Origin: Candidatus Moraniibacteriota bacterium
GTDB lineage: Bacteria > Patescibacteriota > Minisyncoccia > Moranbacterales > UBA1568
NCBI GenBank assembly: GCA_903859375.1
Contig: CAIOMK010000059.1
Span: 3,438-67,437 of the forward strand
Direction: 5' to 3'
Length of the DNA: 64,000 nt
Made by a program: the position numbers and the translations under genes. The notes beneath the pieces were generated by a model. That model saw nothing but the letters and a program-made list of their open reading frames with translations. It ran no database searches and had not been told where the DNA came from. Below are positions 4,348 through 21,714 of the stretch, piece after piece; the first letter of the stretch is position 1; the number at the start of each line of letters is the position of its first letter.

Positions 4348-5871
4348 ATGGACTATTCCGTCATCCCCTCACCCGTTCTCTCCGTGCTCGATGAGCTGAA
4401 GAAACGGAACTATCAGGGACATATCGTCGGTGGTTGCGTGCGGGATATATTTCTCGGACGCGAACCGAAAGATTGGGATGTCACCACGAATGCCAAACCG
4501 GAAGAGGTGTTGGCGATTTTTCCTGACAGCTTCTATGAGAACGATTTCGGGACGGTAGGCGTCAAAGTCGCCCCATTTCACAAAGATGGCCGGCTGGATC
4601 GGGAACACGATGTCATCGAAATCACCACCTATCGGACGGAGTCGGCATATTCCGATCGGAGACGACCGGACCAGGTCTCTTTCGTGATGTCTCTTCCCGA
4701 AGATCTCTCACGCCGGGACTTCACGATGAATGCCATCGCCCTCGAAGTCAGGGAGTCGGATCCGTCGGCGGAAGAAATCAGTCGGGTGGTCGATATCATC
4801 GATCCGTTTCACGGCCAAGAGGATATCCGGCAGAAACTCATCCGGACGGTCGGAAATCCGGAGCAACGATTCGGCGAGGATGCGCTCCGCATGATGCGCG
4901 CGGTCAGACTCTATGCCGAACTTCGCGATGCGAATGACGAAACGCCCTCCAACTGGAAGATAGACGAACCGACCATCGAGGCCGCGCAGAAACACGCCGG
5001 ACTGCTCGCGCATGTCTCCCGTGAACGTGTACGCGACGAATTTTCACGTATCATCCTCTCGCACAGCCCGTCGGAGGGAGTGGAGCTTCTTCGGACGACC
5101 AGACTGCTCGAGGAAATTATTCCGGAGCTCGTCCAAGGGGTCGGCATCGGACAAAACCTGCATCACACCTACACCGTCTACGAGCACAATCTCAGCGCCC
5201 TCAAACATTGCCCTTCACGAAGTCTGGAAGTCCGGCTCGCATCGCTCCTGCACGATATCGGCAAGCCGAAAAGCAAACGGGGTGACGGATACCGTTCGAC
5301 GTTCTACAATCATGACCACATCGGGGCCCGCATGACCAAAGACATTCTTCATCGTCTCCGTTATCCACTTTCGGTCATAGCCAAGGCCACCCTTCTCGTG
5401 GACAATCATCTTTTTTATTACAATGTCGGCGAGGTGACCGAAGCGTCGGTACGTCGACTTATCCGAAGGGTCGGACTCGAAAACATGAAAGACCTCATGG
5501 ACGTCCGCATCGCCGACCGACTCGGTTCAGGCGTTCCGAAAGCGAAGCCCTACAAGCTCCGCCACCTCGAGTATATGATCGAAAAGGTGTCCAAGGACCC
5601 TGTCTCGGTGAAAATGCTCGCCATAAACGGCACAAGCCTCATGAGCGACCTTGGCATGGCACCGGGACCGAAGATCGGAGCCATACTCGACGTACTTCTT
5701 TCCGAGGTGATCGAAGACCCTTCCCAAAACAGCAAAGAGACGTTGCTCGCCCGCGCGCAAGTCCTTTCCCAAGAGGATCTTGCGACGCTCCGTGACAAAG
5801 CCAAGGAAGTCATCGAGGAGAAGAGGGCTGATGACGACCACGGAATCAAGAACAGACACAAGGTGGCGTAG
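4348..5871 (+). CDS. cca: CCA-adding tRNA nucleotidyltransferase with HD domain. The ORF-track start at 4150 is rejected; the true start is the ATG at 4348.
   Basis: Pol-beta nucleotidyltransferase motif GGCVRDIFLGREPKDWDV and HD motif LLHDIGK. The upstream 66 codons overlap the infB 3' end and are low complexity. Confidence 0.85.
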   Translation: MDYSVIPSPVLSVLDELKKRNYQGHIVGGCVRDIFLGREPKDWDVTTNAKPEEVLAIFPDSFYENDFGTVGVKVAPFHKDGRLDREHDVIEITTYRTESAYSDRRRPDQVSFVMSLPEDLSRRDFTMNAIALEVRESDPSAEEISRVVDIIDPFHGQEDIRQKLIRTVGNPEQRFGEDALRMMRAVRLYAELRDANDETPSNWKIDEPTIEAAQKHAGLLAHVSRERVRDEFSRIILSHSPSEGVELLRTTRLLEEIIPELVQGVGIGQNLHHTYTVYEHNLSALKHCPSRSLEVRLASLLHDIGKPKSKRGDGYRSTFYNHDHIGARMTKDILHRLRYPLSVIAKATLLVDNHLFYYNVGEVTEASVRRLIRRVGLENMKDLMDVRIADRLGSGVPKAKPYKLRHLEYMIEKVSKDPVSVKMLAINGTSLMSDLGMAPGPKIGAILDVLLSEVIEDPSQNSKETLLARAQVLSQEDLATLRDKAKEVIEEKRADDDHGIKNRHKVA

Positions 5872-5941
5872 GAATACGAGTCGAAAGTATCAAGTCCAAA
5901 GTCTATACGCCTATGACCCGTCGCGGTTAGGCTGTATAAAC

Positions 5942-5969
5942 TTTACACTTTTCGATAACCTGTTAGAAT
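5942..5969 (+). promoter_or_regulatory. Sigma70-type promoter for tRNA-Pro (TTTACA-N16-TAGAAT)
   Basis: -35 TTTACA at 5942-5947 and -10 TAGAAT at 5964-5969, about 45 nt upstream of the mature tRNA 5' end. Confidence 0.4.
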
Positions 5970-6016
5970 GGGACCTGTTATCGAAAAGGACGGTTTTACG
6001 CTCAAAAAAGGCACAT

Positions 6017-6089
6017 CGGAGTGTGGTATAGTGGTATTACGCACGATTCGGGTTCGTGTAATCCGGGTTCGATTCCCGGCACTCCGACA
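6017..6089 (+). tRNA. tRNA-Pro, anticodon CGG
   Basis: Acceptor stem CGGAGTG/CACTCCG. Anticodon stem CACGA/TCGTG with loop UUCGGGU (anticodon CGG, G37). T-arm CCGGG-TTCGATT-CCCGG. Discriminator A, no encoded CCA. Confidence 0.8.
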
Positions 6090-6249
6090 AAACAAGACTT
6101 GAAAAATGCGCAGGGTTACGGGTTTGCGAAGCATCCGGCGCATGCTGGACGATTCCCGGCACTCCGACAAAACAAGACTTGAAAAATGCGCAGGGTGACG
6201 GGTTTGCGAAGCATCCGGCGCATGCTGGACGATTCCCGGCACTCCGACA
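6071..6249 (+). repeat. Tandem direct repeat, 80-bp unit, 2.2 copies. Each copy starts with the last 19 nt of tRNA-Pro (GATTCCCGGCACTCCGACA).
   Basis: Units at 6071-6150 and 6151-6230 differ by 1 nt, with a partial third copy at 6231-6249. The first copy is the genuine tRNA 3' end. Each unit contains an internal ATGCGC...GCGCAT inverted repeat. Confidence 0.85.
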
Positions 6250-6272
6250 TATTTTGACGGTCACAAACAATT

Positions 6273-6587
6273 ATGAAAATAACCGTACACACGCTTTCAG
6301 CTGATCCCGTGACCGTATTGCGTCGCCTCGGGTATGCCTTCCAAAGGAAAGAAGGTGCCGAGATGAGTTTCATCAGACCGCTTGCGCAAGCTGGGTTTCC
6401 CCGATTCCATTGCTACGCAAAAGTGGAAGGATTCGGTCTGATCATCAGCTTTCATCTCGATCAGAAGAAAGAGACATACGGAGACACGACACGACATCAT
6501 GGAGAATATGAAGCCGAGGGCCCGCTCAAGGAAGAAGCTGACAGGCTGATCGGCCTCCTCGGTCCGAGCGCCCGCATCACAGGCTGA
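6273..6587 (+). CDS. Hypothetical 104-aa protein between the two tRNAs
   Basis: Complete ORF. No recognisable SD and no recognisable domain. Confidence 0.3.
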   Translation: MKITVHTLSADPVTVLRRLGYAFQRKEGAEMSFIRPLAQAGFPRFHCYAKVEGFGLIISFHLDQKKETYGDTTRHHGEYEAEGPLKEEADRLIGLLGPSARITG

Positions 6588-6603
6588 TGGTATCGGTTTA
6601 TCT

Positions 6604-6690
6604 GCCGAAGTGGCGAAATTGGTAGACGCACCAGGTTTAGGGCCTGGCAGGAGCAATCCTATGGGAGTTCGATTCTCCCCTTCGGCACCA
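6604..6690 (+). tRNA. tRNA-Leu, anticodon TAG, long variable arm, CCA encoded
   Basis: Acceptor GCCGAAG/CTTCGGC. Anticodon stem CCAGG/CCTGG with loop UUUAGGG. Long variable arm. T-arm GGAG-TTCGATT-CTCC. Terminal ACCA. Confidence 0.85.
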
Positions 6691-6700
6691 AAGCATGTAT

Positions 6701-6736
6701 AAAAAAACACCACGATCACTCGTGGTGTTTTTTTCT
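6701..6736. terminator. Bidirectional rho-independent terminator between tRNA-Leu and the convergent surface-protein gene
   Basis: Stem ACACCACGA/TCGTGGTGT flanked by an A-run and a T-run. Confidence 0.6.
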
Positions 6737-6751
6737 TTCTCGATAAGTCAC

Positions 6752-9550
6752 TTATTCACGCCGAACGGATTCCGATGCCGTTTCCGGTATGAGGGAGAAC
6801 AGAAATCCGACCGTAAAGAGGAGCAGTCCTCCAGAAAGGAACATACGGAATGCGAACGATACGACCGGCGGTACATACCCCGACAAGGCGGCGTAGAATT
6901 TTTTCGTTCCCGAGTCCGCCGATACCAATGGCCGCACATTCGTCACTTGAACGGATTTGCCTATGGTAATTTCAGCTGTCTGCAACGAGTTTATTCCCCA
7001 GATGTTTCTCAGGGCACTTCTTTTCTCGACCGGCTGTGTCAGCGTGGCCGACAACGCTATGTTGGTCACGTCTCCGACCGCATCCCCTTCGGGAGTGATG
7101 TAATCGATACCGATATAATCGGTTCCGTTGATGTTCCACATCGTTTCGCTCTGGGGAACATCGTTCACCACCCATTGTCGCGTCGAAATCCGTTCCGCGA
7201 AAGTCGGCACGAACCGTGCCCGCAAGTCGATCGGGTTTCCGGGATATTTCTCGAAATAGTTTTCACTGAGATCATCATGTGTCGTCCCGTTGAGATCGAC
7301 ATACTGGCCGACGACACGAGGCCAGAGAGATGACGAGTCGGCCGTTTCCAACACGATGTCCGGAGTCACGATATTGAACATGCGGGTGAGGGTGACCACG
7401 TTTCCGGTCTTGATATCAACCGCATCGAGCTTCACTTTGATGGTCGTCCCAGGCTCTCCCGTCACCGCGATGAAGACTTCCGTCCCGCCCGCACACGCGG
7501 AGTCCGACGATACAAGCGAATTGCAGGGAAGATTTTTCCCATCGACCTTCCAACTGAAATCCGACAATCCGGAGTCGGAACTCAGTTTCAATCCGATAAT
7601 CTCGTTCTTCATGACCCGGCACGAGATACGGTCAAGATTCGTCATGGCATCCTGCGCGGTCTTCGGATCTGCGACATACGTGCTACAGATCTGGCTTCCG
7701 AGAAAGACATTCGAACCCGTATCCGTATCGGCTGCGTTAGCCGTGTACGCAAGAATCTTCTTGTCAGAATTGGAAACCTTGACGACCACGTCGCTTTTCC
7801 CGGTCCGACTGCCACGTGAATTGAAATTCTCAGTAGCAGTGGAAGTGAGTCGCAGGTAGAGAGGGTCCGCCGTTGAAAACCCGCCGAGGACGTCGGCACC
7901 CATGTTGAGCGGGATCGAGATAGTTTTCAGGTCGATGCCCTTGTTGATAGGAAGGAGTCCCTTGCTCTTCAGATCGGCCGTGATATTCCTTGCACCGCTC
8001 ATGCCTATGCTATTGCTCGCTTCCACTTTCCATTCGTATGTGACTTCGGCGTCGGTTTTCCCTGAGTTCGTAATGGACGCGACGGCTGTGAGGGTATCGC
8101 CAGCCTTCTCTCCGGACCGGTCATTGGTCGGATTGTCCGGCGTGGCCGACACGTCGAGTTCTATCTTCTTCGAATTTGCCTGACCGGTATCAAGTGGGTC
8201 GATAAGGTTCGTATATATACCGTTTTTCGTTCCTTCCATGCATCTGTTAAAATCATTCCGCCCCATTCCGGTGGTAGGAAAGTTTACGGAATATCCCTTG
8301 ATCGTCGTATTGTAGCTCCCTTTATTCACGACATCACACCCGTCTCCGGAAAATGCCCACATGACCATCATCGATGAATCGGGGTGCTGCGTATTCACCA
8401 TAGATGTCCCTTCCACGATGAGACCGAGAAGATCGCCGGTCTGATACGTCCACGTGAAGGTATCGAGCCCGAGCCCGACGACATTCGCCTCGTCCTTGCT
8501 ACCGTTGTCGGCAGTATCCGCATCGGCCGGATTCGTCCCCCAGAATCTTTCTTCATCAGCAGTGAACCTCCCATCACCGGTCGTCGCGCCGGTCGCATTC
8601 GGAAAAAGATGTATACAGCTGTCTCCGCCAGGAGACGCACTTGCCGAACAAGTCATGTTGTTCTCCACCACCGGATCATACGCGTAGTTCGGTGTCGCCA
8701 ACAGGGTTATCGGGTCGATGGCATCCGGATAGATCCGACGCTGTACCGTATCCGTCAACTGAAAAGTATTCCCCGCAGCCGGGTTGACACAACGTGGCGA
8801 TTCCAAATCCGGACAAGTGACCGAACCCGAGTCACCGCAGATCGGATCCCCATTGACCTTGTACGTGCCGGTTGAGGCGATTTCCCCACCTGTGCTCATG
8901 ACTTCCTTGATACATTTTGCGGCATAGCCACCCGTACCGCATGCAAAAGACGCGGACAGGGACGATGTCGGGCCGAGTTCATAAAACACGCCGGTTGAGA
9001 CATCTTTGACATAACACCACGACTTGTCGATATTCGTCTTGTCCGATCCTCCGAAGACGTTCCGCACATCATACCCATCGTCGTCATCCGGGCCCGGCAG
9101 GAAGAGGGCCGTGTCCGCCCCATCATTCGCTATGATCTTCATAGCCTCGGTCTTCCAATCTTCCGCGCTGTCCGAGGCATCTTTCCTCTTGAGAAACCAG
9201 GTATAGAACAGTTTGTCGTTGGAATTCGAAAAGTAAAGAGGGAAGGCCTTGGCGGTAATCTTCTGACCTTCCTTCGGATCTGTCGGACTGAAGGAAAGAG
9301 TCGTCCCGGGAGCGTATTTTTTCGTATCGGAAACATTGAAACTATGACCGAAATTCTGAATGGAACTCTTGTCAATATTGAGCGCACTCAGGGTATTGTC
9401 GATCATCGTTCCCTGTATGCCCGAGCTGATACCCCCCAGAGAAATACCCAAAAGCGCGTGCGCATCCCACACAGGGATGGATTGTCCGAGAAGTATGACC
9501 GCGACAAGCAAGACGGAGAACGCTCTCTTCATGAAGGAATTTTTTTTCAT
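6752..9550 (-). CDS. Large (932 aa) secreted surface protein with N-terminal signal peptide and C-terminal TM anchor. Putative adhesin of the T4SS-like island.
   Basis: N-terminal MKKNSFMKRAFSVLLVAVILLG signal sequence. Long T/S/G/D/N-rich beta-type sequence. C-terminal hydrophobic helix GGLLLFTVGFLFSLI followed by PETASESVRRE. Confidence 0.8.
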   Translation of the reverse strand: MKKNSFMKRAFSVLLVAVILLGQSIPVWDAHALLGISLGGISSGIQGTMIDNTLSALNIDKSSIQNFGHSFNVSDTKKYAPGTTLSFSPTDPKEGQKITAKAFPLYFSNSNDKLFYTWFLKRKDASDSAEDWKTEAMKIIANDGADTALFLPGPDDDDGYDVRNVFGGSDKTNIDKSWCYVKDVSTGVFYELGPTSSLSASFACGTGGYAAKCIKEVMSTGGEIASTGTYKVNGDPICGDSGSVTCPDLESPRCVNPAAGNTFQLTDTVQRRIYPDAIDPITLLATPNYAYDPVVENNMTCSASASPGGDSCIHLFPNATGATTGDGRFTADEERFWGTNPADADTADNGSKDEANVVGLGLDTFTWTYQTGDLLGLIVEGTSMVNTQHPDSSMMVMWAFSGDGCDVVNKGSYNTTIKGYSVNFPTTGMGRNDFNRCMEGTKNGIYTNLIDPLDTGQANSKKIELDVSATPDNPTNDRSGEKAGDTLTAVASITNSGKTDAEVTYEWKVEASNSIGMSGARNITADLKSKGLLPINKGIDLKTISIPLNMGADVLGGFSTADPLYLRLTSTATENFNSRGSRTGKSDVVVKVSNSDKKILAYTANAADTDTGSNVFLGSQICSTYVADPKTAQDAMTNLDRISCRVMKNEIIGLKLSSDSGLSDFSWKVDGKNLPCNSLVSSDSACAGGTEVFIAVTGEPGTTIKVKLDAVDIKTGNVVTLTRMFNIVTPDIVLETADSSSLWPRVVGQYVDLNGTTHDDLSENYFEKYPGNPIDLRARFVPTFAERISTRQWVVNDVPQSETMWNINGTDYIGIDYITPEGDAVGDVTNIALSATLTQPVEKRSALRNIWGINSLQTAEITIGKSVQVTNVRPLVSADSGTKKFYAALSGYVPPVVSFAFRMFLSGGLLLFTVGFLFSLIPETASESVRRE

Positions 9551-20730: not shown

Positions 20731-21714
20731 GTGTATACTAAGGATATGAACGGGATCAAACCGAAACATGAATCAATCGAAACGGACCCGGTCCGTCTTT
20801 TGGCGCGGAAATTCCTCGAACACCTCGAAATCGAACTCAGCCGATCTCCACGAACCATCGACAGTTACGGCCTTTCCCTGAAGAAATTTTTCGTAACGGC
20901 TCATATACGCACACCGGAAGACATCACTCTCGAACGCATCCGTGAGTACCGTCTCCATCTCAACCGAGAGACAACGCCCACCGGCGAACCACTCCGAAAG
21001 ACGACTCAGACCTATCATGTCGTCGTATTGCGTGCATTTCTCAAATATCTCGCCAAAGAGGACATCGTCACCGTGCCTGCGGAGAAAATAGAGGTCGGCA
21101 AGACCCCGACACGTCAGGTCGATTTCCTCGAACTCGAAGAGATCGAGCGGCTTCTCTCGTCCGCATCGGGGGATTCGCTCCGCTCTCTCCGAGACCGCGC
21201 CATCCTCGAGCTCCTGTTCTCGGCCGGACTGCGGGTATCCGAACTCACCTCGCTCGATCGCGACCATGTGAATCTCAATAAGGGCGAATTCAGCATCCGA
21301 GGCAAAGGTGCCAAGCTCCGCATAGTCTTTCTTTCCGACGATGCCGGCGATGCCCTCTTCCGGTACCTCGAAAAACGACGGGATATGGACCCCGCACTCT
21401 TCGTCGCAGTCCCGATCGCAAAAAAAGGCTTCGTCAAAGAGGGGGCTCTCGGGGATATCAGACTCACACAGCGGAGCGTGCAACGGCTGGTCAAGAAATA
21501 CGCAGCCAAGGCCGGCATCGTCAAAGACGTCCATCCGCACACATTGCGCCATTCTTTTGCGACCGACCTCCTCCAAAACGGTGCTGATATCCGATCAGTC
21601 CAAGCCATGCTCGGACACGCATCCATCACGACGACCCAGATATACACCCACGTGACCAATGAACACCTCCGAGAGATCCACGAGGCCTTCCACGCGAAGA
21701 AAAAGAAGAAATAA
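20731..21714 (+). CDS. Tyrosine recombinase, XerC/XerD/phage-integrase family
   Basis: C-terminal catalytic HPHTLRHSFATDLLQNGADIRSVQAMLGHASITTTQIYTHV, and the LRDRAILELLFSAGLRVSEL box. Confidence 0.9.
   Translation: MYTKDMNGIKPKHESIETDPVRLLARKFLEHLEIELSRSPRTIDSYGLSLKKFFVTAHIRTPEDITLERIREYRLHLNRETTPTGEPLRKTTQTYHVVVLRAFLKYLAKEDIVTVPAEKIEVGKTPTRQVDFLELEEIERLLSSASGDSLRSLRDRAILELLFSAGLRVSELTSLDRDHVNLNKGEFSIRGKGAKLRIVFLSDDAGDALFRYLEKRRDMDPALFVAVPIAKKGFVKEGALGDIRLTQRSVQRLVKKYAAKAGIVKDVHPHTLRHSFATDLLQNGADIRSVQAMLGHASITTTQIYTHVTNEHLREIHEAFHAKKKKK

What the first reader, a model, noticed from the sequence alone, without database searches (positions are those of the whole stretch)
6071..6249. Tandem 80-bp repeats that each begin with the 3' end of tRNA-Pro
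The last 19 nt of tRNA-Pro(CGG), from the T-loop through the acceptor 3' strand (GATTCCCGGCACTCCGACA), recur three times: at 6071, 6151 and 6231. Each recurrence is fused to the same 61-nt non-tRNA sequence. The first two units are 80 bp and 99% identical.

tRNA 3' ends are classic targets of tyrosine integrases. This pattern resembles stacked att scars from repeated integration or excision events next to the T4SS-like island. Slippage-driven duplication is the alternative explanation.

The repeats also create three spurious minus-strand ORFs.
Basis: seen in the sequence. Interest (0 to 1): 0.55.

Follow-up and report, generated by a model that had tools for sequence, protein, structure and literature searches.

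The report
Tandem tRNA-linked repeats after tRNA-Pro
Downstream of a proline tRNA gene in a Candidate Phyla Radiation bacterium lie two copies of an 80-bp unit, each a leftover tRNA tail carrying a small hairpin insert in its T-loop; this resembles the E. coli "tRNA-linked repeats" and is not a scar left by the neighbouring secretion-system genes.

Summary
tRNA-Pro(CGG) lies at 6017-6087, and a 20-nt block (C56 to the discriminator, plus CA) occurs at 6070, 6150 and 6230. Two 60-nt spacers separate the copies; the units are 79/80 identical.

- The "T4SS island" genes next to tRNA-Leu are syntenic in relatives with and without the repeat.
- No tRNA 3' copy bounds that gene cluster, and the only recombinase in the window is Xer-like.
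- The 60-nt spacer is an old, orthologous element at this tRNA in at least seven related Moraniibacteriota lineages. Other lineages lack it precisely.
- It holds a T-arm 5' mimic and a GC-rich hairpin module at T-loop position 57/58, followed by the duplicated tRNA tail.
- Full versions of the module have two hairpins with covarying stems. They occur in partial or full copies of tRNA-Pro, -Leu, -Arg, -Gly and -Thr on other CPR contigs, sometimes in tandem arrays.
- Near-identical strains carry one unit where this window carries two, so the second unit is a recent unequal-recombination or slippage product.

The closest known analogue is the E. coli tRNA-linked repeats. Function is unknown. Two readings remain open for the module: a selfish T-loop-seeking hairpin element, or a co-transcribed small RNA.

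The parts
5942..5969 (+). Promoter-like site (TTTACA, 16-nt spacer, TG-TAGAAT) about 48 nt upstream of tRNA-Pro. It is the likely start of a tRNA-Pro / repeat / ORF104 / tRNA-Leu transcript.
   Evidence: 10 of 12 consensus positions, extended -10. The CCTG(C/T)TAGAAT motif is kept at the same place in relatives (sequences). Its function is inferred.
6017..6087 (+). tRNA-Pro(CGG), intact, with no encoded CCA.
   Evidence: ARAGORN; Rfam RF00005, 62.4 bits. The sequence is identical in L002-L007 and L094-L110.
6070..6089 (+). Direct repeat copy 1, CGATTCCCGGCACTCCGACA. It covers T-loop C56 to discriminator A73 of the real tRNA plus 2 nt of trailer.
6090..6117 (+). Unit 1, A-rich 28-nt leader of the spacer. 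It shows no detectable similarity to the 5' part of tRNA-Pro.
   Evidence: local alignment no better than shuffles. It is homologous, at 54-71% identity, to the same segment in L004, L006, L007, L097, L099 and L106.
6118..6126 (+). Unit 1, ACGGGTTTG, a mimic of the T-stem 5' strand plus T-loop 5' half (real tRNA: CCGGGTTCG).
   Evidence: covariance-model alignment.
6125..6133 (+). Unit 1, degenerate hairpin 1 (UGC-GAA-GCA). It is the remnant of the 21-nt hairpin present in relatives.
   Evidence: alignment. L004 has the same short form (91% identical module).
6134..6149 (+). Unit 1, hairpin 2, TCCGGC-GCAT-GCTGGA (6-bp stem with one G-U pair, GCAU loop).
   Evidence: exact matches at 6134 and 6214 only; stem covaries across the family; formed in the MFE of the 53-nt segment.
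6150..6169 (+). Direct repeat copy 2. Its first two bases (CG) double as the last two bases of the hairpin module.
   Evidence: model R1 hit at 6117-6169, 54.5 bits.
6170..6229 (+). Unit 2 spacer, identical to unit 1 except G6197 in place of T6117 (hairpin 2 at 6214-6229). This unit is missing in L001 and L105.
   Evidence: model R1 hit at 6197-6249, 52.7 bits.
6230..6249 (+). Direct repeat copy 3. It is followed by TATTTTGACGG..., the flank that in repeat-free relatives directly follows the tRNA.
   Evidence: L002...CCGACATTTTTTCCGGCGAC....
6273..6587 (+). Conserved 104-aa ORF of unknown function between tRNA-Pro and tRNA-Leu. It is context and is probably co-transcribed.
   Evidence: no Pfam hit; syntenic in 14 relatives; 616 homologues at E<=1e-20.
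6604..6690 (+). tRNA-Leu(TAG). In this window it has no pseudo-copy or hairpin module.
6707..6734 (+). Hairpin ACACCACGA / TCGTGGTGT followed by a T-run. It is the first terminator-like structure after the promoter. This was read by eye; the scan tool did not list it.
   Evidence: Sequence. The equivalent hairpin in L105 carries compensatory changes. One search found no terminator in 5800-6800, so this is a reading, not a tool result.

Best explanation
The array is a Patescibacteria (Candidatus Moraniibacteriota) counterpart of the E. coli "tRNA-linked repeats".

**What the unit is**
- An old, non-coding cassette of about 60-75 bp sits directly after tRNA-Pro(CGG).
- It contains an A-rich leader, a mimic of the T-arm 5' half (ACGGGTTYG), and a GC-rich hairpin module at T-loop position 57/58.
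- It ends with a second copy of the tRNA tail (A58 to the discriminator, plus CA).
- The cassette is therefore a truncated pseudo-tRNA-Pro 3' end with an expanded T-loop. In this window the module is a degenerate form: hairpin 1 is reduced to 3 bp, while hairpin 2 is intact.

**How the array forms (shown)**
- The cassette creates 20-bp direct repeats 80 bp apart.
- Unequal sister-strand recombination or replication slippage between these repeats adds or removes whole 80-bp units.
- Close relatives carry 0, 1 or 2 units. The second unit here differs from the first by a single base, so it is recent.

**How it is expressed (inferred)**
- No terminator lies between the tRNA-Pro promoter and the hairpin after tRNA-Leu.
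- The units are therefore probably transcribed with tRNA-Pro, ORF104 and tRNA-Leu.
- By analogy with E. coli TLRs, they may be cut out at the repeated tRNA 3' end as by-product RNAs of about 80 nt.

**The hairpin module (inferred, about even odds)**
- The module belongs to a family of structured GC-rich hairpins that are found in the T-loops of spare tRNA copies across CPR bacteria.
- It behaves like a selfish miniature element, comparable to REP sequences or mitochondrial GC clusters.

The array has no connection to the adjacent T4SS-like genes.
For: **Architecture and chance**
- establish the repeat structure and show it is far beyond chance.

**Copy-number variation**
- L001 has flanks 100% identical to the window and exactly one 80-bp unit fewer.
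- L105 has a few SNPs in its flanks and carries one unit.
- A third assembly (ERZ1426720, no DNA available) has the same 401-nt gap between the CCA-enzyme gene and the ORF as the window.

**An old, orthologous cassette**
- The same leader / ACGGGTTYG / hairpins / 3' copy follows the identical tRNA-Pro in L004, L006, L007, L097/98, L099-101 and L106-110.
- It is precisely absent in L002/L094-96, L102-104, L003 and L008.
- The 3' copy matches the tRNA tail at 20/20 positions in the window, L105 and L099, and at 19/20 in L006, although the leaders are only 54-71% identical.

**A structured module**
- Model R1 was used to align the family. On that alignment 94% of cells are paired, versus 84% in shuffles and 37-51% in slid controls.
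- 11 of 17 pairs show changes on both sides; 0 of 500 shuffles reach this.
- Examples: hairpin 2 is TCCGGC/GCCGGA in L006, CCCTGC/GCAGGG in L099 and CCCCGTC/GACGGGG in L069.
- For full modules the MFE fold gives a three-way junction, with z-scores from -1.25 to -2.7.

**The same module in other tRNA contexts**
- It follows tRNA-Arg in L085 and L088 and tRNA-Thr in L084.
- After tRNA-Gly in L087 it forms three tandem 74-nt units.
- It lies inside a pseudo-tRNA-Leu in L098. The sister assembly L097 has one intact tRNA-Leu, which defines a 37-nt insert between positions 57 and 58.
- An identical 37-mer occurs in loci of 56% and 32% GC.

**Generality**
- Among 206 tRNAs in the fetched CPR loci, 24 have a copy of the tRNA tail within 400 nt downstream.
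- Beyond 400 nt, 730 kb of downstream sequence holds none, except in L087.

**Not an island**

**Known analogue**
- E. coli has 22 TLRs at 10 loci, with 1-5 per locus. Each ends with 18-19 nt identical to the 3' end of the upstream tRNA or rRNA, and RrB is processed 3 nt past that repeat (PMC8144298).
Against: - The 28-nt leader has no detectable similarity to tRNA-Pro. Relative to repeat-free relatives, the cassette therefore looks like foreign DNA flanked by an 18-20-bp direct repeat, which also fits an integration remnant.
- One unit versus two could partly reflect assembler collapse of a short tandem repeat. No reads were available to test this.
- The window's own unit is not more stable than shuffled sequence (z = -0.03 for 80 nt and -0.67 for 53 nt).
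- In the window the module occurs only at this locus, so mobility is not shown for this genome.
- Transcription and processing are untested.
- The covariation count was made on an alignment fitted to the model, and that alignment includes one reverse-strand row. The metagenome hits were retrieved using the hairpin 2 sequence, so conservation of hairpin 2 among those hits is circular.
Confidence: 0.65

Rival explanations
1. Integration remnants. A site-specific recombinase element once integrated into the T-loop of tRNA-Pro and carried a replacement tRNA tail. Almost all of the element was later deleted, leaving its right-end recombinase-binding hairpins next to the displaced original tail (a CIME-like attL-attR remnant). 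Recombination between att copies then made the tandem array.
For: [quoted passage not shown] - The leader is unrelated to the tRNA.
- The window-type short module is shared with the distant L004 but not with closer relatives.
- In L073 an old tRNA-Pro is split around a new one.
Against: - No integrase lies within or beside any of the roughly 24 short units. The window's only recombinase is Xer-like and 14.5 kb away.
- In 730 kb of sequence downstream of 206 tRNAs there is no kb-scale segment bounded by tRNA-tail repeats, apart from the L087 duplication, which also duplicates the downstream HU gene fragment.
- The same module is joined to at least five different tRNA species. In L098 it sits on the opposite side of the crossover point (5' pseudo-copy then module), and in L087-B it sits alone between both halves of a full-length tRNA. 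One attP layout cannot produce all of these.
- The module is absent from 2.9 million viral contigs.
- Compensatory changes in both hairpins among orthologous copies are not expected for a dead scar.
Confidence: 0.15
2. A host-beneficial small RNA or processing element. Each unit is a functional co-transcribed RNA: a three-way junction of a T-stem mimic plus two hairpins, carrying a tRNA 3' tag. tRNA 3'-end enzymes (RNase Z, CCA-adding enzyme) recognise and release it. It acts as a small RNA, a decoy, or an insulator between the tRNA and the downstream mRNA. This reading is not exclusive of the main explanation.
For: - Orthologous copies kept both hairpins through compensatory changes, and the loops (GCAUUCG, GCAU/GGAU) are conserved.
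- The 3' copy is 19-20/20 identical in four lineages whose leaders have diverged by 30-45%.
- The same architecture follows tRNA-Pro(CGG) in Niyogibacteria (L069, L073).
- There is no terminator before ORF104.
- Some E. coli TLRs (RrA, RrB, RrF) are processed and bind Hfq and CsrA (PMC8144298).
Against: - The cassette has been lost cleanly in several close lineages, and the 3' copy is decayed in others (15-17/20 in L097, L007, L004 and L106).
- In this window hairpin 1 is nearly gone and the fold is not unusually stable.
- The partial copy has no acceptor 5' strand, so it is not an obvious RNase Z or CCA-enzyme substrate.
- Gene conversion from the adjacent tRNA could keep the tail identical without selection.
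- It matches no Rfam family.
Confidence: 0.25
3. Assembly artefact. The tandem array is a mis-expansion, or the 1-unit contigs are collapses, of a short repeat in a short-read metagenome assembly.
For: - The unit (80 bp) is shorter than the typical k-mer or read length.
- Several relatives' contigs break just upstream of this locus (L099-L101, L104).
Against: - The two units differ at one base (T6117/G6197). An artificial expansion would not create that difference.
- The 2-unit spacing recurs in an independent ENA/NCBI contig.
- The 1-unit form recurs in two assemblies, one of them a distinguishable strain.
- The basic tRNA + spacer + 3' copy structure is present in more than 10 independent assemblies of related species.
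Confidence: 0.03
4. An intron-like insert. The hairpin module is an intervening sequence that is removed from T-loop-interrupted tRNAs, and the repeats are functional alternative 3' exons.
For: - L087 carries a full-length tRNA-Gly whose only defect is the 37-nt insert at position 57/58.
- Patescibacteria are known to carry tRNA introns (PMC13011429).
Against: - The known Patescibacteria tRNA introns are self-splicing group I introns in the anticodon loop. A 25-37-nt hairpin pair cannot self-splice, and bacteria are not known to have the archaeal splicing endonuclease (general knowledge).
- In this window and in most loci the interrupted copy lacks the whole 5' half of the tRNA, and an intact gene lies alongside it.
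Confidence: 0.03

Closest known systems
E. coli tRNA-linked repeats (TLRs: RtT at tyrT, RrA/RrB/RrF after 5S rRNA; Egan & Landy 1978 and Rudd 1999, as summarised in PMC8144298)
   Same: - The units lie immediately downstream of a stable-RNA gene in the same transcription unit.
- Each unit ends with about 18-19 nt identical to the 3' end of that upstream RNA.
- There are one to five tandem units per locus.
- No function is known for most of them.
   Different: - The host is a different phylum (Patescibacteria).
- The units are shorter (60-90 nt, versus about 100-180 nt).
- The non-tRNA part is not related in sequence (Rfam RtT and other families give no hit).
- The repeat is preceded by a T-arm 5' mimic and a GC-rich hairpin module at T-loop position 57/58. 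As far as I know, this has not been described for E. coli TLRs.
- Transcription and processing are untested here.
Tandem att scars of integrative elements at tRNA/tmRNA genes (for example Dehalococcoides ssrA genomic islands, PMC3146451; CIME accretion)
   Same: [quoted passage not shown]
- A conserved element-derived motif sits directly upstream of each repeat.
- Several repeats occur in a row.
- Strains differ by presence/absence bounded by the repeats.
   Different: - The Dehalococcoides repeats bound kb-sized islands that carry recombinase modules and cargo genes and that break synteny.
- Here the repeats bound 60 nt with no genes, there is no integrase, and the flanking genes are syntenic.
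Small mobile GC-rich palindromic elements (yeast mitochondrial GC clusters, PMC4478555; also, from general knowledge, fungal mitochondrial double-hairpin elements, Rickettsia palindromic elements, REP/REPIN)
   Same: - The element is a short (25-63 nt) GC-rich hairpin unit with conserved ends and a variable middle.
- Identical copies occur in genomes of very different base composition.
- It shows presence/absence polymorphism between near-identical assemblies (L097 versus L098).
- It nests and merges with other hairpins.
- No transposase is encoded.
   Different: - The target appears to be one specific position (57/58) of tRNA T-loops in spare tRNA copies.
- Mobility is inferred from its distribution and has not been observed.
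- In this window the module is degenerate and occurs at a single locus.
[quoted passage not shown]
   Same: Both are extra sequence inside tRNA genes of the same phylum. One pseudo-tRNA-Thr in L084 has a hairpin insert at anticodon-loop position 35/36, the site reported for those introns.
   Different: Group I introns are ribozymes of more than 200 nt in the anticodon loop of functional genes. The module here is 25-37 nt, lies in the T-loop, and is mostly found in truncated copies.

Membership tests
tRNA-linked repeats (TLR, E. coli sense) | Located immediately downstream of a tRNA or rRNA gene, in the same orientation, with no intervening gene or terminator. | tested here: met
   The units start at the last bases of tRNA-Pro (6070-6249). 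No terminator-like site was found in 5800-6800, and the first hairpin followed by a T-run lies after tRNA-Leu.
tRNA-linked repeats (TLR, E. coli sense) | The 3' end of each unit is identical over about 18-19 nt to the 3' end of the upstream stable RNA. | tested here: met
   18 nt of the tRNA (C56-A73) plus 2 nt of trailer are repeated exactly three times.
tRNA-linked repeats (TLR, E. coli sense) | One to five tandem units per locus. | tested here: met
   The window has 2 units. L001 and L105 have 1. L087 has 3 units after tRNA-Gly.
tRNA-linked repeats (TLR, E. coli sense) | Co-transcribed with the upstream RNA and processed at the repeated 3' end. | not testable with these tools
   No expression data are available. 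Co-transcription is inferred from the promoter-like site and the lack of a terminator.
tRNA-linked repeats (TLR, E. coli sense) | Sequence homology of the non-tRNA part to E. coli TLRs (RtT family). | tested here: not met
   There is no Rfam hit other than tRNA at the gathering threshold, and none to RtT at E<=10 in 5880-6760. This is an analogue, not a homologue.
Integrase att scars / integrative island at a tRNA | Direct repeat of the tRNA 3' segment at both ends of the inserted DNA. | tested here: met
   However, the bounded DNA is only 60 nt.
Integrase att scars / integrative island at a tRNA | A site-specific integrase encoded inside or beside the repeat-bounded segment. | tested here: not met
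   No ORF lies between the repeats. The only recombinase (20731-21714) is XerC/D/XerA-like and lies outside any repeat-bounded segment. None was found next to the modules in L084, L085, L087 or L088.
Integrase att scars / integrative island at a tRNA | The bounded segment carries foreign genes and interrupts synteny relative to relatives. | tested here: not met
   The T4SS-like neighbours (the 932-aa and 221-aa genes) are syntenic in L002-L011 and L023 regardless of the repeat. GC content is flat at about 0.52. No distal tRNA-Leu or tRNA-Pro repeat exists.
Integrase att scars / integrative island at a tRNA | A matching attP on a phage or episome. | tested here: not met
   The 20-mer hits one viral contig, and only inside a phage tRNA gene. 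The module patterns give 0 hits in viral contigs. Plasmids and whole genomes were not searched.
Miniature mobile hairpin element (REP / MITE / GC-cluster type) | Hairpin-forming, conserved ends with structure maintained. | tested here: met
   Covariation in both hairpins. The ends CCCCRGCATTC... and ...GCATGCCGGACG are conserved while the middle varies from 25 to 63 nt.
Miniature mobile hairpin element (REP / MITE / GC-cluster type) | Multiple copies at different loci within one genome. | tested here: inconclusive
   In the window the module occurs only at this locus. The P0002 lineage has it at both the tRNA-Pro and tRNA-Leu loci (L098), and L087 has two loci. Whole genomes could not be scanned.
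Miniature mobile hairpin element (REP / MITE / GC-cluster type) | Empty versus filled sites between close relatives, and near-identical copies in unrelated hosts. | tested here: met
   L097 (intact tRNA-Leu) versus L098 (extra pseudo-copy with a 37-nt insert). An identical 37-mer occurs in loci of 56% and 32% GC. The L097/L098 difference also includes a partial gene duplication, so it is not a clean insertion event.
Miniature mobile hairpin element (REP / MITE / GC-cluster type) | A cognate transposase or recombinase acting in trans. | not tested
   This would need whole-genome co-occurrence analysis.

The most novel reading that the evidence does not exclude
The 80-bp units are the local, degenerate representatives of an undescribed family in Patescibacteria.
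- The family is a structured double-hairpin module that occupies position 57/58 of the T-loop in spare, partial or full tRNA copies.
- It is always fused to a tRNA 3' tag and is often amplified in tandem.
- It is either a T-loop-homing miniature mobile element or a new class of tRNA-tagged small RNA.
- A second family with a core of about 85 nt has the same layout.
- In the loci sampled here, roughly one tRNA gene in ten carries such a tail copy.
Probability: 0.45. Interest if true: 0.7.

Novelty: new variant of a known kind. Interest (0 to 1): 0.5.

Why it matters
- If the reading holds, tRNA-linked repeats are not an E. coli oddity. E. coli TLRs have been known since 1978 and most still have no function. 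The same layout recurs in the reduced genomes of CPR bacteria, where non-coding DNA is scarce and so harder to dismiss.
- The CPR version adds a defined, covarying hairpin module at one T-loop position. That module gives a concrete handle, the covariance model R1, for genome-wide surveys.
- It also allows a clear test of two alternatives: a selfish element that homes to T-loops, or a small RNA that borrows the tRNA 3'-end machinery.
- Practically, these units mimic integrase att sites. They will generate false "island boundary" calls, spurious ORFs and contig breaks in CPR metagenome assemblies.

Tried and rejected
- **Known RNA families.** Rfam gave only tRNAs, at the gathering threshold on the window and on 15 loci, and at E<=10 on 5880-6760.
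- **ICE or att pair for the T4SS-like cluster.** I searched for distal copies of the tRNA-Pro and tRNA-Leu 3' ends and for any long direct repeat in 5.9-24 kb. None was found. The recombinase is Xer-type.
- **Phage attP.** Three viral-contig scans gave one hit, a phage tRNA gene, and two scans with no hit.
- **Spacer as a decayed 5' half of tRNA-Pro.** There is no similarity beyond shuffles.
- **Unusually stable RNA fold in the window's own unit.** Not supported (z = -0.03 and -0.67).
- **Transposase or integrase next to modules on longer contigs** (L084, L085, L087, L088). Pfam found only housekeeping genes or no hit. The 439-aa ORF between the two L087 arrays has no Pfam, PADLOC or PHROGs hit.
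- **Strand test using G-U versus A-C pairs.** Both kinds occur, so it is uninformative.
- **Literature.** Five full-text searches found no description of a T-loop hairpin module or of TLR-like units in CPR. One further query failed on syntax.
- **MAFFT alignment of all module variants.** It misaligned the short forms and was replaced by an alignment made with the covariance model.
Full report
**1. The observation**

The window comes from a Candidatus Moraniibacteriota (Patescibacteria/CPR) genome. The best relatives of its CCA-adding enzyme are all MAGs of that group, at up to 80% amino-acid identity.

ARAGORN and Rfam place tRNA-Pro(CGG) at 6017-6087/88 and tRNA-Leu(TAG) at 6604-6690.

The chance expectation is 0.01.
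- TRF gives period 80, 2.2 copies and 99% match at 6070-6249.
- The 20-mer is T-loop C56 to discriminator A73 (18 nt) plus the first two trailer bases. CCA is not encoded.
- The two full units differ only at T6117/G6197.
- The three minus-strand ORFs are listed. They cross a tRNA gene and an 80-nt unit whose copy number varies, so they are not genes.

**2. The neighbourhood is not an island**

The genes upstream are DUF4446, IF-2 and a CCA-adding enzyme. Downstream lie a 104-aa ORF, tRNA-Leu, and then a minus-strand cluster. That cluster includes a VirB4-like ATPase and ends with a LysM-CHAP protein.

- The block CCA enzyme / tRNA-Pro / ORF104 / tRNA-Leu, together with the 932-aa and 221-aa genes that open the cluster, is syntenic in L002-L011 and L023. 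This holds whether or not those genomes carry a second copy of the tRNA tail.
- GC content is flat.
- No distal copy of either tRNA 3' end exists in the window.
- The one tyrosine recombinase (20731-21714) scores as XerC/XerD and passes the XerA cut-off.
- The viral-contig collection contains the 20-mer only inside a phage tRNA gene, and does not contain the hairpin module at all.

**3. Copy number varies**

- L001 is another assembly with flanks 100% identical to the window. It lacks exactly one 80-bp unit.
- L105 is a distinguishable strain with SNPs in its flanks. It also has one unit, of the T6117 type.
- A third contig has the window's 401-nt spacing between the CCA-enzyme gene and the ORF, which corresponds to two units.

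The second unit is therefore a recent gain or loss by recombination or slippage between the 20-bp repeats. I cannot exclude that some 1-unit contigs are assembler collapses. The T/G difference between units argues that the 2-unit form is real.

**4. The single unit is old and orthologous**

Behind the identical tRNA-Pro, eight sequences from six to seven lineages (window, L105, L099, L097, L006, L007, L004, L106) share the same parts in the same order:
- an A-rich leader;
- ACGGGTTYG;
- one or two GC-rich hairpins;
- a copy of the tRNA tail.

Other lineages go straight from ...CCGACA into the flank that follows the last copy here. These are L002/L094-96, L102-104, L003 and L008.

Leaders are 43-71% identical between lineages. 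The tail copy matches the tRNA at 20/20 positions in the window, L105 and L099, at 19/20 in L006, and at 15-17/20 in the others. The leader is not recognisably derived from tRNA-Pro.

**5. What the spacer contains**

A metagenome scan with hairpin 2 plus the junction returned 11 loci. Five are chance hits in coding DNA. Six (L087 and L089 carry the same sequence) are CPR-like contigs in which the same module sits just after, or inside, other tRNAs:
- Arg(GCG) in L085 and L088;
- Leu(TAA) in L086;
- Thr(TGT) in L084;
- Gly(TCC) in L087, where three tandem 74-nt units follow the intact gene.

The sister assemblies L097 and L098 differ at tRNA-Leu. L097 has one intact tRNA-Leu. L098 has an extra 5' pseudo-copy with a 37-nt insert exactly between T-loop positions 57 and 58: GTTCA[CCCCAGCATTCGCGGGGCGTCCGGCGCATGCCGGACG]AGTCTC. 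The identical 37-mer is present in L087 and L089, which are 32% GC, whereas L098 is 56% GC.

In this window the insert is a 25-nt degenerate form, CGAAGCATCCGGCGCATGCTGGACG. Its last two bases mimic C56 and G57, which is why the repeat measures 20 nt rather than 18.

I built a covariance model from six full modules (R1). It finds the two window units at 54.5 and 52.7 bits. It also finds new members after tRNA-Pro in Niyogibacteria (L069, L073) and nothing else in the window.

On the model-made alignment:
- 94% of cells are paired, versus 84% in shuffles and 37-51% when partners are slid;
- 11 of 17 pairs have changes on both sides;
- no shuffle out of 500 reaches these values.

Caveats: the alignment is fitted to the model, one row is a reverse-strand hit, and the T-stem pairs covary trivially because they come from different tRNAs.

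MFE folds of full modules give a three-way junction of T-stem mimic, hairpin 1 and hairpin 2, with z-scores from -1.25 to -2.7. The window's own unit is not special (z = -0.03 and -0.67).

**6. How general it is**

Among 206 tRNAs in the non-redundant fetched loci:
- 24 have a copy of their last 17 nt (up to 2 mismatches) within 400 nt downstream;
- 6 have a copy of their first 17 nt upstream;
- 1 has the head downstream;
- none has the tail upstream.

Both partial tandem duplication and integration predict this asymmetry, so it does not discriminate between them. Beyond 400 nt, 730 kb of downstream sequence holds no further tail copies except in L087. These loci were selected around one gene, so the 12% figure is not a genome-wide estimate.

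**7. Comparison with known systems**

- **E. coli tRNA-linked repeats.** These have the same defining layout. There are 22 units at ten loci, with one to five per locus. Each ends in 18-19 nt identical to the 3' end of the upstream tRNA or rRNA. Most have no known function, and RrB is processed 3 nt past the repeat (PMC8144298). The CPR units are analogues, not homologues, because Rfam gives no hit.
- **True att scars at Dehalococcoides ssrA.** These share the 20-bp repeat starting mid-T-loop and a conserved motif upstream of each repeat. However, they bound kb-sized islands that carry recombinase modules (PMC3146451).
- **Yeast mitochondrial GC clusters.** These are a precedent for short GC-rich palindromes that multiply, merge and cross species (PMC4478555).
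- **Reported Patescibacteria tRNA introns.** These are group I ribozymes in the anticodon loop (PMC13011429) and are a different thing.

I found no description of a T-loop hairpin module or of TLR-like units in CPR.

**8. Verdict**

Shown:
- the repeat is real;
- its copy number varies;
- the base unit is an old, orthologous cassette;
- the cassette carries a member of a widespread, structured, T-loop-associated hairpin family;
- the T4SS-like genes are unrelated to it.

Inferred:
- the units are co-transcribed and possibly processed;
- the module is mobile;
- the cassette originated either by partial duplication plus hairpin insertion or as an integration remnant.

I file the array as a new variant of the tRNA-linked-repeat kind and rate it as moderately interesting. 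The window's feature itself is a degenerate relic. The family it points to deserves a genome-wide survey.

Noticed in passing
L016:3841-3960, L020:3843-3960 and 7686-7800, L017:5917-6045, L026:5550-5700, L037:6064-6225, L038:2675-2790, L071 (minus strand, downstream of tRNA-Pro at 5746-5818): A second kind of tRNA-linked unit follows tRNA-Arg(CCT), tRNA-Leu(TAG) and tRNA-Pro(CGG). A conserved core of about 85 nt (AAAGGGGUCGG-hairpin-CCG..GAAACCG..GGUUUCAAAGAGCGAAGCGAGUGAGAU) lies between an inverted copy and a direct copy of the local tRNA's T-stem and acceptor 3' strand. RNAalifold finds covarying hairpins, and no Rfam family matches.
   Followed up: partly
L004:6440-6540, L006:6350-6543, L007:6407-6601, L098:1826-1965, L002:6283-6365, L106:1515-1546: Just upstream of the intact tRNA-Leu(TAG) lie 5' pseudo-copies of the same tRNA. 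They carry GC-rich hairpin inserts in the D-loop and the same module in the T-loop, followed by a conserved AGTCTCTTGAGACATCAGTATT. The feature is present in L098 but absent in the sister assembly L097, and only a remnant remains in L106. The window has none of this.
   Followed up: partly
L087:1-2720: Two tRNA-Gly(TCC) arrays flank a 439-aa AT-rich ORF (763-2082) that has no Pfam, PADLOC or PHROGs hit. One array has an intact gene plus three units. The other has a full-length gene interrupted at position 57/58 plus one unit. The duplication also includes the terminator and about 110 nt of the 3' end of an HU gene. This could be a Campbell-type insertion or a segmental duplication at a tRNA array.
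   Followed up: partly
L073:2010-2260 (compare L069:5452-5603): In a Niyogibacteria contig, an older tRNA-Pro appears split. Its first ~25 nt lie upstream, and its variable loop, T-arm (with module) and 3' strand lie downstream, of a different, intact tRNA-Pro(CGG).
   Followed up: no
L084:2700-3030 (minus strand): Downstream of tRNA-Thr(TGT), in a 36% GC contig, is a near-complete pseudo-copy with three GC-rich hairpin inserts. They lie in the D-loop, in the anticodon loop at position 35/36, and in the T-loop. Position 35/36 is the site reported for group I introns in Patescibacteria (PMC13011429).
   Followed up: no
window:13843-14471: About 600 bp of complex, degenerate tandem repeats (CTTTCGACTTGTAA, CCCCGT and 33-40-nt units) lie inside the T4SS-like gene cluster. 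Every frame I translated has stops, so it appears non-coding.
   Followed up: partly
window:4150-6690: The gene for the CCA-adding enzyme lies directly upstream of a tRNA-Pro that lacks an encoded CCA. A conserved 104-aa protein of unknown function (616 homologues at E<=1e-20, no Pfam or NCBIfam hit) is sandwiched between tRNA-Pro and tRNA-Leu throughout Moraniibacteriota. In L102 its ATG starts 5 nt after the tRNA.
   Followed up: partly
L094, L095, L096 (positions 1-1500): Three assemblies encode the same ORF104 variant (P0003). They share about 330 nt upstream of tRNA-Pro, but beyond that they have three different upstream genes (gyrA, the CCA enzyme, YceG). Either the locus is a rearrangement hotspot or the contigs are chimeric at a repeat.
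   Followed up: no
L082:3230-3311 (IMGVR_UViG_3300029288_000128): A 90-kb viral contig carries, within a run of tRNA genes, a tRNA-Pro(TGG)-like gene. Its acceptor stem and last 20 nt are identical to those of the window's tRNA-Pro(CGG).
   Followed up: no
L002:3911-3991: A stand-alone copy of hairpin 1 with an extended stem (GGAGTTCGCCCCGGCATTCGCGGGGCGAACTCC) lies between the IF-2 and CCA-enzyme genes, away from any tRNA. This suggests the hairpins also exist as free REP-like elements.
   Followed up: no
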